A stretch of DNA of 64,000 nt from the human T2T-CHM13v2.0 reference genome, Homo sapiens. A model generated the notes under the pieces. It saw only the letters and a list, made by a program, of their open reading frames with translations. It was not told where the DNA came from and searched no databases. The stretch's first letter is position 1; each line of letters begins with the position of its first letter. Location: assembly GCF_009914755.1 (NCBI RefSeq), contig NC_060928.1. One strand, written 5' to 3'. Positions 8,461 through 42,179 of the stretch are shown here, in pieces. Both the position numbers and the translations under genes were made by a program.

Positions 8461-9216
8461 TATTACAGTGATTTTTAACTGACTCTGGAAACACTTCCTG
8501 GAAGGGAGTTGATGCTCAGTTTTCAGGAGATTTGGGAATTCTCGGTTAGATCATAATTGTTCATTCAGCGCAAATGTGTACTGAATGCCCACTGTGTGCC
8601 CACCCTCTGCCCAATGCCGGAGATACAGTGGTATCCCAGTGCCCTGTCTGCTGGAAAGTGATGAGTGGCCATAAAACAGGATAGGAACATAGAGAATAAC
8701 CAGGATCAGGGGAGGGAGGTGGTGGCTTTAGAGGGGGTAGTTCGACAAGGACTGAAGCAGTAACATTTTGAGACCTCAGTAATGAAGATCTGGAGAGCAG
8801 TGTTCCAGGCAGAAGGAACAAGGGCTCAAGACAGAGACAGCAAAGAGCTCAGTGAGTTACAGCCAGAGAAACAAGCACACTGCATGAATGTGGGAGGTAG
8901 AAGGGCTCCTTGGGGCCACAACCCCAGGCGCTTGGGAAGAGAATGGATTTTAACCTGGGCACAGTGCAAAATGATTGATGTCATGTTATCACCCCTGATT
9001 TAACCAGGTTTCAAAAATTTCCTTACCAGCTAATGGCATGGGGATGTGGCTGGAGTGCAAAGTGACACCCTTCGGCCTGGGTTTAGGTGTCTCTAATCGC
9101 CCTCACCTGCACTTGTGCCATCGCACACTCAAGGCTTAGGGGTTGAGGAAGGAGTGCTGGAAGGGCCCAGAAGGCAGAGCACTGGTGTCTGCACTATCAG
9201 GTTCAAAGCCCAGAAA

Positions 9217-9960
9217 GGCCAGGCATGGAGTGGCTCACGCCTGTAATCCCAACGCTTTGGGGTCTGGAGGATTGCTTGAGGCCAAGAGTTTGAGACCAGC
9301 CTGGCCAACATGGTGAGCCCCTACCTCTATTTAAATTTTCTTAAATTAAAAAATAGACCAGACACAGTGGCTCACACCTGTAATCCCAGCACTTTGGGAG
9401 GCCGAGGGGGGTGGATTACGAGGTCAGGAGTTTGAGACCAGCCTGGCAACATGGTAAAACCCCATCTCTACTAAAAGTACAAACAATTAGCTGGGCATGG
9501 TGGTGGGCGCCTGTGGTCCCAGCTACTTGGGAGGCTGAGGCAAGCAGAATCGCTTGAACCCGGGAGGCGGAGGTTGCAGTGAGCCGAGATCGCGCCATTG
9601 CACTCCAGCCTGGATGACAAGAGCAAAACTCCGTCTCAAAATAATAATAATAATAATAAGGCCGGACGTGGTGGCTCACACCTGCAATCCCTGCACTTTG
9701 GGAGGCCAAGACGGGTGGATCCCTGAGGTCAGGAGTTCAAGACCAGCCGGACCAACATGGAAAAACCCCATCACTACTAAAAATACAAAAATCAGCCGGG
9801 TGTGGTGGCACACGCCTGTGGTCCCAGCTACTCAGAAGGCTGAGGCAGAAGAATCGCTTGAACCTGGGAGGCAGAGGTTGCAGAGCCAAGATCGCGCCAC
9901 TGCAGTCTATCCTGGGTGACAAAGTGAGACTGTCTCAAAATATAAGAATAATAATTAATA
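9217..9960 (+). mobile_element. Tandem Alu cluster: left monomer plus two full AluS
   Basis: Monomer about 9217-9345, Alu about 9356-9659 with (AAT)n tail, Alu about 9660-9960. Confidence 0.9.
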
Positions 9961-10087
9961 AATACATAAAAACAAAAGGAAATGCAAGCAACACATTCTC
10001 AAGGTGGCCACAGGAGGGACAGTAGCAGAAGCCCCAGGCCCCCGGGTGGGAATAGCCCTCGTGGGTGCCTGAAGTGCCCGATGGCAG

Positions 10088-10183
10088 AGATGACAGCCCT
10101 TGGATGCTAGACCTCAGACCTTTGCTGCTGGGTGGTGACCCAGCAGCAAAGGTCTGAGGTCTAGCATCCAAGGGCTGTCATCT
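10088..10183. repeat. Perfect 46-bp inverted repeat with 4-nt spacer
   Basis: 10088-10133 is the exact reverse complement of 10138-10183; loop GGTG; checked base by base. Confidence 0.97.
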
Positions 10184-10246
10184 TAATGACAGCACCGTTT
10201 TCAGTGGAAACCCTTGCATTGCCTATGGGTTTTATTTCTCCTTCTC

Positions 10247-10332
10247 CTTACACTTCTGGGGATTCTAAGTCAATGGCACTGCAGTTTGAAGATGTGGCAG
10301 TGCCATTGACTTAGAGTCACCAGAAGTGTAAG
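10247..10332. repeat. 36-bp inverted repeat (34/36 matched) with 14-nt spacer
   Basis: cttacacttctggggattctaagtcaatggcactgc / gcagtgccattgacttagagtcaccagaagtgtaag. Confidence 0.95.
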
Positions 10333-11053
10333 AACGGTGGCCCCCCCTGAAAGTGTGGCTGATGCATTCCATTTGCCAGGAAAGCCAGACCTTTCCATCC
10401 CTTCCCTCTTTCTTTCCTCTCCTGGTATAAGATCCAGGAATCAGTCCTGAGACTCAGGGTGAACAGAGAGAGAAGGACATAAGCACCTCCCAGGCCTCCC
10501 AGTACCCGCTGTTAGTGTGGGGGCTTCTCTGGCTCCTGGTCAGGCCCCCTGCCCCCACCGGGTGTGCAAAGGAGCAGGGCCTTTTTGCCCACAGATCAGA
10601 CAGGCTGCCCTTTCCCAGGGCTGCGGCCAACCTGCCAGCACCAGGATTCTTCCAGAACAGTTTCCTGAGAGCAGGGCGGTGATTTCAGCAGCAATATACT
10701 CACCAATTATTCATCTCACTGAATTTCATTAGTTTAAAAAATTATGTTTCTCTTTATTATAAAGGCAGGCAATTGACTACTGCCTGAAGAATAAACTCAG
10801 TGACGCTAGAGAGAGCTCGGCAGTATGTGAATAAAAGGTCATTAACAAGCCTAGTTCTTGCCATAAAGACAGGTGAGAGGAAAATAAACTCTCAAGGATG
10901 AGTAAATCACATCTCCTCAGCCATCTTTATCAAATACATGGCAAGATTGCCACTGTATGTGAACAGAACACAAGTAACCGTTTAATGGCTGCTTCCATTC
11001 GGGAGGCTTAGATGATCCAAGTTCCCACATCTTTGTCAACTGGTGCAGTTTTT

Positions 11054-11384
11054 GTTGTTGTTGTTGTTTTGTTTTTGTTTTGTTTTTTTTGAGACAGAGT
11101 TTTGCTCCTATTGCCCAGGTTAGGGTGCAGTGGTGCAATCTCGGCTCGCTGCAACCTCCGCCTTCTGCCTTCCGGTTTCAAGCGATTCTCCTGCCTCAGC
11201 CTCCCAAGTCACTGGAATTACAGGCGTCTGCCACAATGCCCAGCTAATTATTTTTTTGTATTTTTAGTAGAGACAGGGTTTCACCATATTGGTCAGGCTG
11301 GTCTCGAACTGCTGACCTCGTGATCCACCCGCCTCGGCTTCCCAACGTGCTGGCATTACAGGCCTGAGCCACCGAGCCCGGCCC
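11054..11384 (-). mobile_element. AluS-type with 17-bp TSD
   Basis: TSD caactggtgcagttttt at 11037-11053 and 11385-11401. Confidence 0.93.
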
Positions 11385-11754
11385 CAACTGGTGCAGTTTT
11401 TTTCCGGCGTATTGATTTCCTTGGGCAGTTATCGGAAGTGATGTGCACAGCCGGATATTCCCTATCCTTGAGCAATGCAAGAACTCTCACACTGCCGTGA
11501 TGGTTGCCTTCACCGAGACTGGACTCTCAGAACTGGATTGGGAAACAGCGGGGGGAGGGGGTGCATGGCAGATCTAGGAAAACACACTCAGGAAGCTTCC
11601 ATGGACAGGGCCTGGGTGGAGTTGAATAGCAGGAGGAAGGCGGATGGTGAATTTGGAAGAGTAAGGAGGTCAAAGTGGCAATAGGCTACATATGCAACAT
11701 GATGTCTTTTTAATTTGGAGTTTTCTCCTCTTTCTTTTTACAAAATACTCTCTT

Positions 11755-15218: not shown

Positions 15219-15470
15219 ATTAATTAATTGTTAATTAATATCAAATATTAACAGTAATTTGTTAATAGCAATTTTGATATTAATACATTAATTTTATTTT
15301 TAAAATAAATAATGTTAAGTAAATACCTACTTAATAATAAAATTAATTTATTAATATTAATACTTAAATTTATGTTAAAATAAATTTTAAAGTATTTAAT
15401 AAATTATTTTATTGATATTAAAATTAATATTTAATGTTAAATATTATTATTTGATTATTAATAAAATAAA
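15219..15470. repeat. Extremely AT-rich low-complexity tract with short inverted repeats
   Basis: Almost only A/T; attaattaa-ttg-ttaattaat and tattaaca...tgttaata. Confidence 0.9.
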
Positions 15471-30359: not shown

Positions 30360-30800
30360 AGAAGTGAGTGGATAAACCAATTGTGGTATGTGCATATAAA
30401 GAAACACTGCTTAGAAATAAAGAGAATGAACAACATTTTGGTTTCTTTCATTCCACTTAATCAAAATGAAATCATTTTCATTCCACTTAATCATTTTGGT
30501 TGATGCAACAACATGGATCAACCTCAAAATGATTAAGTGGAATGAAAGAAACCAAACAAAAAGTATAATCTGTATGATTCCCTTTACATAAAATTTTAGG
30601 CAATGCAAACCAATTGATAGTGACAGAAAACGGGTCAGTGGATGCTTGGGGATGGAGCTGGGGGATGCAGGAAGGACTGGAAGGGAGGGATTACAAAGGG
30701 GTCCAAGGAAGTTTTTGGGGTGATAAGTATATTCCTATCTTCATTGTGGTGATGGTTTCACAGGTGTTCACTAGTGTCAAAATGCATCCAAATTTACACT
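30360..30800 (+). mobile_element. Old L1M 3' fragment
   Basis: gtggataaaccaattgtggtat...atgcaacaacatggat...ctgtatgattcc...gtggtgatggtttcacagg. Confidence 0.8.
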
Positions 30801-31888: not shown

Positions 31889-32189
31889 TTCTTTTTTTTA
31901 TTATTTTTTGAGATGGATTCTTGCTTTGTCGCCCAGGCTGGAGTGCAGTGGGGCAATTTCAGCTCACTGCAACCTCCGCCTCCAAGATTCAAGCAATTCT
32001 GATGCCTGTCTCCCAAGTAGCAGGGATTACTGGCGTGCACCATTATGCCTGGCTAATTTTTGTGCTTTTAGTAAAGACGGGGGTTTGCCATGTAGGCCAG
32101 GCTAGTCTTGAACACCTGGCCTCAAGTGATACACCTGTCTCAGCCTCTTAAAATGCTGGGATTACAGGCGTGAGCCACTGTGCCTGGCC
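31889..32189 (-). mobile_element. AluS-type
   Basis: Full Alu. Confidence 0.9.
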
Positions 32190-32223
32190 AGAAAAGGGAA
32201 ACTTTGAGAAGTTAATGAACATT

Positions 32224-32540
32224 GGCCGGGCAGGGTGGCTCACACCTGTAATCCCAGCACGTCGGGAGGCTGAGCAGAAGGATGGCTTGAGCCCAGGAGT
32301 TTGAGACCAGCTTGGGCAACATGGCAAGACCCCATTCCTACCACCCCCCCCCACACACACACACACACAAACTGGGTGCAGTGGTGCATGCCTGTAGTTC
32401 CAGGTACTCAGGAAGTTGAGGCGGGAGGATTGCTTGAGCCCAGGAGGTCAAGGCTGCAGTGAGCTATGATCACACCACTGTACTCCAGCCTGTGGGACAG
32501 GGCAAGACCCTGTCTCTTAAAAAATCATAAAAATAAAAAA
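32224..32540 (+). mobile_element. AluJ-type with C-run/(CA)n linker
   Basis: Full Alu; middle A-tract replaced by C8 and (CA)n. Confidence 0.9.
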
Positions 32541-40640: not shown

Positions 40641-42179
40641 GTAAGGACGCTTCTCAATGTGGGATAATTCTTTTTCTGGGCCAGCTGGTTAATCCGGGGC
40701 TGGGAGAAACAAGTTGTGATTGGGTTGCTACTTTTTCCTGGTTTTAATTTTTTCCCTGCAGAAGAGGGAAGGAAAAGACTGGGATTTGCTGACAAAGCTC
40801 ACAGTGAGCTCTGTTAATCCAGGCAGGAAGGGAGTAAGGAAGCAAAAAATCGAGGGAGAGACACAGCTGGATTTGACACCAAAGCAACATGAATGTGGCA
40901 AAGCATAAGGCCAGTTCCAGTGATGTTGTGAGACTCAAATGCTGTTTTATTTCCTAACATAGGTAGTCACAGTCAGGAGCTTAGCTGGGCCTCTCCGGGG
41001 TTTCTGTAAGCCAGCTGCTAGCCGATGTAACTCAGTCGACCCCATTTGAAAGGACCTAATATCTGCTAGTATTTTCAAAGGGCAAACTGTAGTAGTCTTG
41101 CATGTTATAAATAGGTCTATTCAGAAATGTGGGAACAGTTTAGAGCAGACAGGAGACTGTAAAGTTTTACTGCCCCATAAAAGTGCTCAAAGGGTACTAT
41201 GTCCCTCTGCCGTGCGACTGTGGAATGAAGAAATAGCCCCAGGTGAATAGAGCGTTTGTCCTTGACTACCCAAGTGAGAAGTCAGCAGAGCCTGGGGACG
41301 CCATGTGAGTCGGGGGTGAAGCCTGATGTGGGCTCAGCCAGCCACACCTCGGGGTGCTTGCTGGTTTCCGGGGTGTGAATGGGTGAGGGTGGAAAACCAC
41401 TCAGGCACCGGTCTTTGGTGCCTGCTTTATCTCTTGGCTGGCCCATTCGGTGCTCAGTGAGGCACCTGTCGTAGCTCACGGGGTGCGCAAAGGGCAAGGA
41501 AAGGGTTGTGCTGTCATTGCGACCTGTAAGGTGGGGAGGGGGCTACAACATCTCGAGTCCTGGGAGTTGCTTTAGAAAGTCCTCCTCCTCCTGCTGAAAA
41601 AAAGAATCACCTACGGCAGCTTTGATCAGATAAGTTTCTGGTGAGCCCCGTGGTGTGGAGTCAGTGAACTTGCGGTTTGTGTTTGTTATCGACAGGAGCC
41701 TGATAAAATGAAAAGGTGAGGTTTAATTTTTACATAAAGCTAGAGGTGAACCATGGGACTTTAATACATTTAATGCTTTGAAAGTCTCCCCACCTCTCCA
41801 AATTCCCTCAACTTGTATCTATTATCTAGGTACACCTTGTTTAAAGCCACCATGCTGTTTGCGGATCCTGGAGGTATTAAGTCAGAATACAAAGGGTGTT
41901 TTTCAAATGAATTTGACGCCAAGCAACATGAATGCTTGAACCCATTGTATGAAAACAGGCAGTCTCTAAGTGAGGCCAGGTTCTCCTGGTGCGGTCCTAG
42001 AGCCCTGGAGAGGGATGAGTCACCCCACGAGGAGGTCCTGACAAGGAATGGAAATTCTGACTCTGCCAGTGAACTTTTGACTCTCCCAGGTGGGGTGGAG
42101 GCTCCAAAGGGAAAGGACAGGTGTGCATCATTCACCCTCCAGGCCCACCGCAGGCCTCACAAATCCCATTTGGTCAGGT

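What the first reader, a model, noticed from the sequence alone, without database searches (positions are those of the whole stretch)
10088..10183. Perfect 46-bp hairpin in non-repeat DNA: candidate de novo pre-miRNA or cruciform
Seen: agatgacagcccttggatgctagacctcagacctttgctgctgggt, a GGTG loop, then its exact reverse complement. There are no mismatches in 46 bp of complex, GC-balanced sequence, and I recognise no transposon here. The octamer ATGACAGC at the stem base (10090-10097) recurs just past the stem (10186-10193), where it can form a competing 8-bp mini-hairpin with 10174-10181. Established: replication template switching can create perfect hairpins in one step, and long tight palindromes tend to be unstable and extrude cruciforms. 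Inference: this is a young template-switch product with the octamer marking the switch or return point. If transcribed from an upstream TRIM2 promoter it would be a Drosha/Dicer, ADAR or PKR-length duplex.
Basis: partly seen in the sequence, partly recalled or inferred. Interest (0 to 1): 0.8.

Follow-up and report, generated by a model that had tools for sequence, protein, structure and literature searches.

The report
Twin DNA hairpins in TRIM2 intron
A flawless 96-base DNA palindrome, with a second, slightly worn one right beside it, lies in unique DNA inside an intron of the human TRIM2 gene; it is most likely a by-product of DNA-copying slips, not a working gene.

Summary
Arms 10088-10133 and 10138-10183 are 46 nt, 100% complementary, with a GGTG loop. 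The sequence has 55% GC and no CpG. As RNA it folds to -105.9 kcal/mol, z = -17.6.

The arms occur nowhere else in the T2T genome. Controls show the search finds Alu and old repeats of 74-85% identity, so a multi-copy MITE is rejected.

In 264 kb scanned, these two are the only complex, non-repeat inverted repeats with arms of 24 nt or more.

No Rfam family reaches its gathering score, and the hub's RefSeq table lists no MIR gene. A 46-47 bp stem with a 4-nt loop lies off the 35-bp-stem, loop-of-10-nt-or-more preference for pri-miRNAs. The second hairpin fits that preference better.

Best reading (0.6): fold-back or template-switch inverted duplications, a known and abundant class (PMC10710096). 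Function is not shown. Origin and age could not be tested because no primate orthologues were available. Perfect arms only bound the age at about 33-65 My.

The parts
10088..10133 (.). Hairpin 1, left arm (46 nt)
   Evidence: exact reverse complement of 10138-10183. Unique in the genome apart from its partner arm.
10134..10137 (.). Hairpin 1, 4-nt spacer/loop GGTG (not itself palindromic)
10138..10183 (.). Hairpin 1, right arm (46 nt)
10186..10193 (+). Third copy of the octamer ATGACAGC. It is a direct repeat of 10090-10097 and the complement of 10174-10181, and can form an 8-bp mini-hairpin with loop CTTA.
   Evidence: Its position at the stem base is unusual (about 2e-4, post hoc). The arm-flank alignment is not significant. 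Its role is unresolved.
10247..10282 (.). Hairpin 2, left arm (36 nt)
   Evidence: 34 of 36 positions complementary to 10297-10332. Unique in the genome.
10283..10296 (.). Hairpin 2, 14-nt loop AGTTTGAAGATGTG
10297..10332 (.). Hairpin 2, right arm (36 nt, 2 differences from a perfect complement)

Best explanation
Hairpin 1 is a single-copy inverted duplication made by fold-back (template-switch) DNA synthesis. During replication or break repair, the growing 3' end left its template and copied about 46 nt of the neighbouring sequence in reverse complement, using either the nascent strand folded back on itself or the opposite strand. It then returned, leaving a 4-nt turn. This happened in unique DNA of an intron of the long TRIM2 isoforms. 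Hairpin 2, 64 bp downstream, is a product of the same kind that has since picked up two substitutions. The two may be independent events at a site prone to fork stalling, or parts of one multi-switch event. I take both to be neutral. On single-stranded or supercoiled DNA they can fold into hairpins or a cruciform. In TRIM2 pre-mRNA started upstream they would fold into a 47-bp perfect duplex and a 36-bp near-perfect duplex. Shown: the structure, its uniqueness, and its absence from RNA-family and gene annotation. Inferred: the mutational mechanism, the order of events and neutrality.
For: Perfect 46-nt arms with a 4-nt turn, about 1e-17 expected by chance. The arms and flanks are single-copy in the T2T genome: only a self match for 10060-10350, only the two arms for the 37-nt arm core at up to 3 mismatches, and only self plus a simple-repeat tail for 10333-11080. 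The same search returns 7185 candidates for an Alu and 89 candidates at 74-85% identity for an old repeat. There is no direct-repeat flank of the kind a transposon leaves: the flanks are GATGGCAG and TAATGACA. A second palindrome of the same build lies 64 bp away. In 264,000 bases scanned (the window plus 20 stretches of 10 kb around TRIM2), 5 inverted repeats had arms of 20 nt or more, at least 90% identity and a spacer of 60 nt or less. Four of them had arms of 24 nt or more: hairpins 1 and 2, one AT-rich low-complexity repeat, and one Alu/Alu pair. With 0 other complex ones, the 95% upper bound on density is about 11 per Mb. That gives under 0.6% for a second within 250 bp on either side (my arithmetic, post hoc). 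Clustering is therefore unlikely to be chance, which fits a local mechanism. The class is documented. PMC10710096 reports 53,666 putative template-switch mutations in human genic regions since the primate ancestor, 31,007 of them forming new stems and 6,054 of miRNA size. Events of 28 and up to 83 bases are described there.
Against: The defining test could not be run: one arm absent in outgroups, and a fit of the four-point model. The great-ape template-switch list of PMC7954356 has no event at chr4:15317xxxx. That hg38 position is my recalled estimate, and the method targets short events on the human, chimpanzee and gorilla branches. TRIM2 and chr4 do not occur in the 3 readable supplements of PMC10710096; its genome-wide locus list is not among them, and one file was too large to read. 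That paper reports template-switch events as depleted in genes and introns. I could not tell which arm is ancestral. I found no clear microhomology at the junctions, and the third octamer copy is not explained by a simple two-switch event.
Confidence: 0.6

Rival explanations
1. An unannotated small-RNA locus. Hairpins 1 and 2, both in the sense strand of the TRIM2 intron with centres 154 nt apart, act as a young two-hairpin miRNA or hairpin-siRNA cluster processed by Drosha and/or Dicer. The origin may still be template switching.
For: Both hairpins form together in the 341-nt sense-strand fold: -210.4 kcal/mol, z = -16.3. Hairpin 2 has a 36-bp stem with one mismatch, one G-U pair and a 14-nt loop. 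That matches the 35-bp-stem, loop-of-10-nt-or-more preference quoted in PMC10710096. Hairpin 1 has a CNNC-type tetramer (CAGC) 18 nt past the predicted 3' cut (the motif window is recalled). [quoted passage not shown]
Against: No Rfam family reaches its gathering score. The best hits for hairpin 1 are plant long-hairpin models: MIR868 at 49.9 bits against 200, and MIR831 at 45.9 against 100. The best for hairpin 2 is MIR6426 at 42 against 96. The hub's RefSeq table lists no MIR gene in the window. No paper text holds either arm sequence. Hairpin 1 has a 4-nt loop and 33 bp above the basal-ruler cut. Neither hairpin has a basal UG or apical UGU at the expected place (motif positions recalled). 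The base rate is low: only 0.9% (57 of 6,054) of suitable template-switch hairpins are annotated miRNAs. No expression data could be consulted.
Confidence: 0.08
2. An old palindrome, pre-primate or early primate, whose arms are kept identical. The cause would be either recurrent arm-homogenising template switching (quasi-palindrome correction) or selection on a DNA or RNA structure.
For: Template switching was first proposed as the conversion of quasi-palindromes into perfect ones (PMC10710096). A paper by the same group is titled as showing that it can 'create and maintain RNA hairpins' (PMC8794818; search listing and start of abstract only). Perfect arms do not prove youth. Hairpins 1 and 2 are statistically compatible with one age: the chance of 0 mismatches in 46 pairs at hairpin 2's rate is 0.078.
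Against: There is no evidence of function or conservation. Hairpin 2 next door has not been homogenised (2 mismatches). No regulatory element is annotated here in the hub's table; the nearest enhancer is at 42074.
Confidence: 0.12
3. A relic of a mobile element (a palindromic MITE or other DNA transposon) that is now the only recognisable copy.
For: Short palindromic MITEs exist in the human genome and some give miRNA hairpins (recalled, not tested). An 8-nt direct repeat, ATGACAGC, is spaced 96 nt apart, and 8 bp is the hAT target-duplication length (recalled).
Against: The genome holds no other copy of either hairpin or of 1 kb of flank. The same search finds repeats down to 72-74% identity. 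The left octamer lies inside the stem and also pairs with 10174-10181, which a target-site duplication does not explain. Sequence immediately outside the arms is not duplicated. Perfect arms would be odd for an element old enough to have lost all its relatives.
Confidence: 0.04
4. Not a fixed human feature: either a very recent variant private to CHM13 or rare in the population (still a fold-back event), or an assembly error.
For: Zero arm divergence is what a very recent event would give. Only one assembly could be examined here.
Against: A 96-bp element is far shorter than the reads behind a T2T assembly, and I know of no assembly artefact that yields a 46-nt inverted duplication (inference). 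The worn hairpin 2 beside it shows the locus has carried such structures for a long time. Fixed events accumulated over tens of millions of years should outnumber segregating ones (inference).
Confidence: 0.08

Closest known systems
Template-switch-mutation (TSM) hairpins of the primate lineage, including TSM-born miRNA genes such as hsa-mir-4713 and hsa-mir-576 (PMC10710096)
   Same: [quoted passage not shown]
   Different: No ancestral state is known here, so TSM origin is inferred and not shown. There is no miRNA annotation or read evidence. The stem is longer (46-47 bp) and the loop shorter (4 nt) than the pri-miRNA preference. Two hairpins sit side by side.
Quasi-palindrome correction and fold-back priming (Ripley-type strand switching; fold-back inversions at breaks)
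   Same: The same chemistry: a 3' end primes on a nearby complementary stretch and copies it, giving arms that are exact complements.
   Different: Those models start from a pre-existing imperfect palindrome or from a break. Neither can be seen in a single genome. The only candidate seeds are the 4-bp GGGT/ACCC pair around the loop and the 8-bp octamer mini-hairpin.
Palindromic AT-rich repeats (PATRR11, PATRR22 and others) and other fragile palindromes (review PMC7999016, passages read)
   Same: Long arms, high identity and a very short spacer are the features the review says raise the risk of hairpin or cruciform formation.
   Different: This element is 96 bp against roughly 200 bp or more for the named PATRRs (PATRR17 about 200 bp, PATRR8 about 350 bp). 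It has 55% GC, not AT-rich. No rearrangement is known at it.
Palindromic MITE-derived hairpins (for example MADE1 and the mir-548 family; recalled)
   Same: A palindrome of about 80-100 bp that folds into a long hairpin when transcribed.
   Different: MITEs have many copies. Both hairpins here are single-copy.

Membership tests
Template-switch (TSM) generated hairpin | Adjacent inverted repeat with (near-)perfect arms and a short turn | tested here: met
   46 of 46 pairs with a 4-nt loop. Hairpin 2 has 34 of 36 pairs with a 14-nt loop.
Template-switch (TSM) generated hairpin | One arm absent, or a different sequence in its place, in the ancestral or outgroup state, with the change explained by one switch-and-return path (four-point model) | not testable with these tools
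   No primate or mammalian genome is available. Exact 24-mer scans of genome contigs and viral contigs gave 0 hits. There is no entry near the recalled hg38 position in the great-ape TSM table of PMC7954356.
Template-switch (TSM) generated hairpin | Not explained by a repeat family or low-complexity sequence | tested here: met
   Single-copy, with controls. Dinucleotide entropy of the arms is 3.6 bits.
Canonical miRNA gene (pri-miRNA) | Stem of about 35 bp with an unstructured apical loop of 10 nt or more (as quoted in PMC10710096) | tested here: not met
   Hairpin 1 has 46-47 bp and a 4-nt loop. Hairpin 2, with 36 bp and a 14-nt loop, does meet it.
Canonical miRNA gene (pri-miRNA) | Membership of a described family or an annotated MIR gene | tested here: not met
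   All Rfam hits over 10085-10336 are below their gathering scores. No MIR gene is in the hub's RefSeq table. miRBase and MirGeneDB themselves were not searchable.
Canonical miRNA gene (pri-miRNA) | Discrete 5p/3p small-RNA reads with Drosha/Dicer overhangs | not testable with these tools
   No small-RNA or CLIP data are available. The arm sequences occur in no searchable paper text; supplements are not covered by that search.
MITE / DNA transposon | Multiple dispersed copies in the genome | tested here: not met
   Only self matches. The tool detects repeats at 72-85% identity.
MITE / DNA transposon | Target-site duplication immediately outside the terminal inverted repeats | tested here: not met
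   The flanks GATGGCAG and TAATGACA differ. The octamer repeat overlaps the stem itself.
PATRR-type fragile palindrome | AT-rich palindrome of roughly 200 bp or more | tested here: not met
   96 bp, 55% GC.

The most novel reading that the evidence does not exclude
One palindrome begets another. The older quasi-palindrome (hairpin 2) stalls forks in this TRIM2 intron and provoked the fold-back event that made hairpin 1. Alternatively, one multi-switch event made both, with the stray third octamer as the trace of an aborted extra switch. Either way the result is a two-hairpin unit in the sense strand of a transcribed intron. That would be a newborn bicistronic small-RNA or long-dsRNA (ADAR/Dicer substrate) locus caught before any refinement of its stems.
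Probability: 0.1. Interest if true: 0.55.

Novelty: new member of a known kind. Interest (0 to 1): 0.3.

Why it matters
If the origin is confirmed, this would be an unusually clean example of raw material for new hairpin RNAs: 46 perfect pairs, complex sequence, single copy, and a second older hairpin 64 bp away. It would also bear on whether such events cluster because one palindrome disturbs replication enough to seed another. As it stands, it is one more instance of a class already counted in the tens of thousands in human genes (PMC10710096). No function, instability or expression has been shown. A practical point: a 96-bp perfect palindrome can trouble PCR, short-read alignment and variant calling at this spot in TRIM2.

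Tried and rejected
- **Multi-copy element.** Rejected by own-genome searches with positive controls.
- **Known RNA family.** The Rfam scan at E up to 10 over 9000-11500 gave only sub-threshold, structure-driven hits to long-hairpin miRNA models on both strands.
- **Footprints of the event in cis.** I ran Smith-Waterman comparisons of eight segments (upstream flank, both arms of each hairpin, the segment between the hairpins, the hairpin 2 loop, downstream flank), direct and inverted, against 200 shuffles each. At p of 0.03 or less only three pairs came up: the two palindromes and a weak AAACCC/GGGTTT stem in the segment between the hairpins. I tried by hand to fit the three octamer copies to a two-switch path with either arm ancestral. 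No fit worked without assuming a third switch or a pre-existing mini-hairpin, so this stays unresolved.
- **Target-site-duplication reading of the octamer.** Rejected, because the left copy is inside the stem and is also present in inverted form.
- **Independent copies of the locus.** Exact 24-mer scans of genome contigs and viral contigs gave 0 hits, as expected.
- **Literature.** No paper text holds either hairpin's arm sequence. A TRIM2 / intron / hairpin / small RNA search gave nothing relevant, and 'TRIM2' as a word start also matches TRIM21 to TRIM29. A template switch / inverted repeat / T2T search gave nothing relevant. The palindrome catalogue PMC7680136 needs a perfectly palindromic central 8 bases, so it would not list this element.

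Full report
**1. The observation**

The repeat finder reports arms 10088-10133 and 10138-10183: 46 nt, 100% complementary, 4 nt between them. A script confirms exact reverse complementarity, 55% GC and no CpG. It also shows that complementarity ends at the arm ends, apart from one possible G-U pair.

- As RNA, the 131-nt stretch folds to -105.9 kcal/mol, against -41.5 +/- 3.7 for 200 shuffles (z = -17.6, 0 of 200 as good).
- As DNA, it folds to -64.1 kcal/mol, z = -19.6.
- The chance expectation for such a repeat in 3.1 Gb is about 1e-17.

The octamer ATGACAGC at 10090 and 10186, and its complement at 10174, are also real.

**2.

A second palindrome lies 64 bp downstream: arms 10247-10282 and 10297-10332, 36 nt, 34 of 36 positions complementary, with a 14-nt loop. 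It folds to -64.3 kcal/mol, z = -9.6.

Both hairpins form side by side when 341 nt are folded in either strand: + strand -210.4 kcal/mol, z = -16.3; - strand -200.8 kcal/mol, z = -14.8.

**3. Repeat or unique?**

The window's own genome (T2T-CHM13) can be searched.

- The 291 nt spanning both hairpins gave one candidate locus, itself. The other two rows are its own inverted self-matches.
- The 748 nt downstream gave itself plus nine 33-37-nt matches to the simple-repeat tail at its end.
- A 37-nt core of the hairpin 1 arm at up to 3 mismatches occurs once forward and once reverse, which are the two arms.
- The hairpin 2 arm occurs once forward (0 mismatches) and once reverse (2 mismatches).

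The tool warns that very common words are skipped, so I ran controls. An Alu from the same neighbourhood gave 7185 candidates. A stretch at 30400-30600 gave 89 candidates at 74-85% identity. Repeats both young and old are therefore seen. The hairpins and about 1 kb around them are single-copy at that sensitivity, and a multi-copy MITE is rejected.

**4. How unusual locally?**

I scanned the 64-kb window plus twenty 10-kb stretches on both sides within and around TRIM2, 264,000 bases in all. Five inverted repeats had arms of 20 nt or more, at least 90% identity and a spacer of 60 nt or less.

Four of them had arms of 24 nt or more: hairpin 1, hairpin 2, an AT-rich low-complexity repeat at 15277-15357, and an Alu/Alu pair at 32154-32259. 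So the only two complex, non-repeat ones are neighbours.

With none elsewhere, the 95% upper bound on their density is about 11 per Mb. That gives under 0.6% for a second one within 250 bp on either side. This is my arithmetic and it is post hoc.

**5. Known RNA?**

An Rfam scan at E up to 10 over 9000-11500 gave 44 matches. Those over the hairpins are all far below their gathering scores, and they are to long-hairpin miRNA models of unrelated organisms, on both strands:

| Hairpin | Family | Bits | Gathering score |
|---|---|---|---|
| 1 | MIR868 | 49.9 | 200 |
| 1 | MIR831 | 45.9 | 100 |
| 1 | mir-4872 | 34 | 58 |
| 2 | MIR6426 | 42 | 96 |

These are matches to shape, not to sequence.

The hub's RefSeq table lists no MIR gene in the window. 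No paper text in the library holds an 18-nt stretch of either hairpin's arms in DNA or RNA letters, on either strand. Supplementary tables are not covered by that search.

**6. Fit to the miRNA pathway**

PMC10710096 (introduction) quotes a strong preference for a 35-bp stem and an apical loop of 10 nt or more. Hairpin 1 has 46-47 bp and a 4-nt loop, which leaves 33 bp above a basal-ruler cut. Hairpin 2 has 36 bp and a 14-nt loop, which leaves 23 bp.

Neither hairpin has UG at the basal junction or UGU at the apical junction. Hairpin 1 has a CNNC-type CAGC 18 nt past the predicted 3' cut. These motif positions are recalled, and CNNC is common by chance.

By length, the hairpin 1 duplex is in the range of ADAR, Dicer and PKR substrates (recalled). 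Nothing here shows that it is transcribed, exported or processed. If either hairpin is miRNA-like, it is hairpin 2.

**7. Origin**

Template switching as a one-step maker of perfect hairpins is documented. PMC10710096 (abstract and sections 6, 8 and 9 read) reports the following for human genic regions since the primate ancestor:

- 53,666 putative events, of which 31,007 form new stems and 6,054 are of miRNA size.
- Of that last group, 0.9% (57 of 6,054) are annotated miRNAs.
- Events of 28 and up to 83 bases are described.
- 105 of 111 template-switch miRNA loci have gained further mutations since the event.

A 46-nt copy with a 4-nt turn in unique intronic DNA fits this class, and its flawless stem looks like unrefined raw material. 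The defining evidence is an ancestral state lacking one arm, and I could not obtain it, because no primate or mammalian genome is available to these tools.

- TRIM2 and chr4 occur in none of the 3 readable supplements of that paper. Its genome-wide list is not among them, and one file was too large to read.
- The great-ape event table of PMC7954356 has no chr4 entry at 15317xxxx.
- The searchable supplements of PMC5453318 have no entry there either; one file was not searched.
- The hg38 position used for these look-ups is my recalled estimate. Those methods target short events on recent branches, so the misses weigh little.

**8. Age**

With 92 CpG-free stem bases, the chance of no substitution depends on the rate:

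| Rate (per site per year) | 6.5 My | 15 My | 30 My | 5% level reached at |
|---|---|---|---|---|
| 0.5e-9 | 0.74 | 0.50 | 0.25 | 65 My |
| 1e-9 | 0.55 | 0.25 | 0.06 | 33 My |

'Perfect' therefore means primate-age or younger, not necessarily recent. It says even less if the arms are re-homogenised by further switching; PMC8794818 makes that point in its title, of which I saw the listing only.

The 2 differences in hairpin 2 give point estimates of 28-56 My, with 95% limits of 3-201 My. At hairpin 2's rate, hairpin 1 would show no mismatch with probability 0.078. The two could therefore be of one age.

**9. The octamer**

There are three copies: 10090 (+), 10174 (inverted) and 10186 (+). The last two form an 8-bp stem with loop CTTA at the foot of the big stem.

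A simple estimate for such a mini-hairpin at either stem base is about 2e-4. This is post hoc. The stretch holds 14 direct 8-mer recurrences in 713 bp, and the arm-flank alignment is not significant.

A target-site duplication does not explain the inverted copy. A two-switch path with either arm ancestral does not generate the third copy. It needs either a pre-existing mini-hairpin or an extra short fold-back after the main copy. I leave it unexplained.

**10. DNA-level behaviour**

The review PMC7999016 (passages read) states that longer arms, higher identity and shorter spacers raise the likelihood of hairpin or cruciform formation and of breakage. It also states that in eukaryotes hairpin formation on the lagging strand is limited by an Okazaki initiation zone of 100-200 nt. 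A 96-bp element would fit within that zone.

Hairpin 1 therefore has the features of a potential fork obstacle, but it is much shorter and more GC-rich than the known fragile PATRRs. No instability is shown.

**11. Verdict**

The palindrome is real, unique and far beyond chance, and it has a worn companion next to it. The best-supported reading is a small cluster of fold-back or template-switch inverted duplications in a TRIM2 intron (0.6).

Rivals:

- An old palindrome kept perfect (0.12).
- An unannotated small-RNA locus (0.08).
- A private variant or assembly error (0.08).
- A transposon relic (0.04).

It is a new member of a known kind. Interest is modest until orthologous sequence and small-RNA data are consulted.

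Noticed in passing
window 30437-30556: A 27-nt perfect inverted repeat (30437-30463 / 30530-30556, 66-nt spacer). The right arm lies inside an old interspersed repeat: 318 candidate copies, 40 scored, 72-79% identity, with homology to the copies starting near 30503. It looks like the 3' end of an old L1, which is a recalled resemblance. The left arm lies outside that homology. A 17-nt piece of it is also repeated directly at 30447-30463 and 30477-30493. This looks like a multi-switch inverted duplication, or an L1 5'-inversion junction. The paralogous copies could serve as an outgroup to test that.
   Followed up: partly
window 10193-10199 and 10333-10339: CACCGTT and AACGGTG are complementary. 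In the sense-strand fold they close a 7-bp helix around hairpin 2 and the spacer before it. A weak AAACCC/GGGTTT stem also lies at about 10208-10232 (p = 0.01 uncorrected). Both may be chance.
   Followed up: partly
window 9190-9987 and 11089-11413: The unique 1.1-kb island holding the hairpins is bracketed by Alu elements: Metazoa_SRP-like sub-threshold hits on + at 9218-9938 and on - at 11089-11382. One Alu arm scores 74.5 bits against the mir-1268 model, whose gathering score is 83. This is an ordinary Alu-derived look-alike.
   Followed up: no
window 10480-10660: A GC-rich stretch about 300 bp downstream of hairpin 2, in unique DNA, with no annotated element in the hub's table. Not examined.
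   Followed up: no
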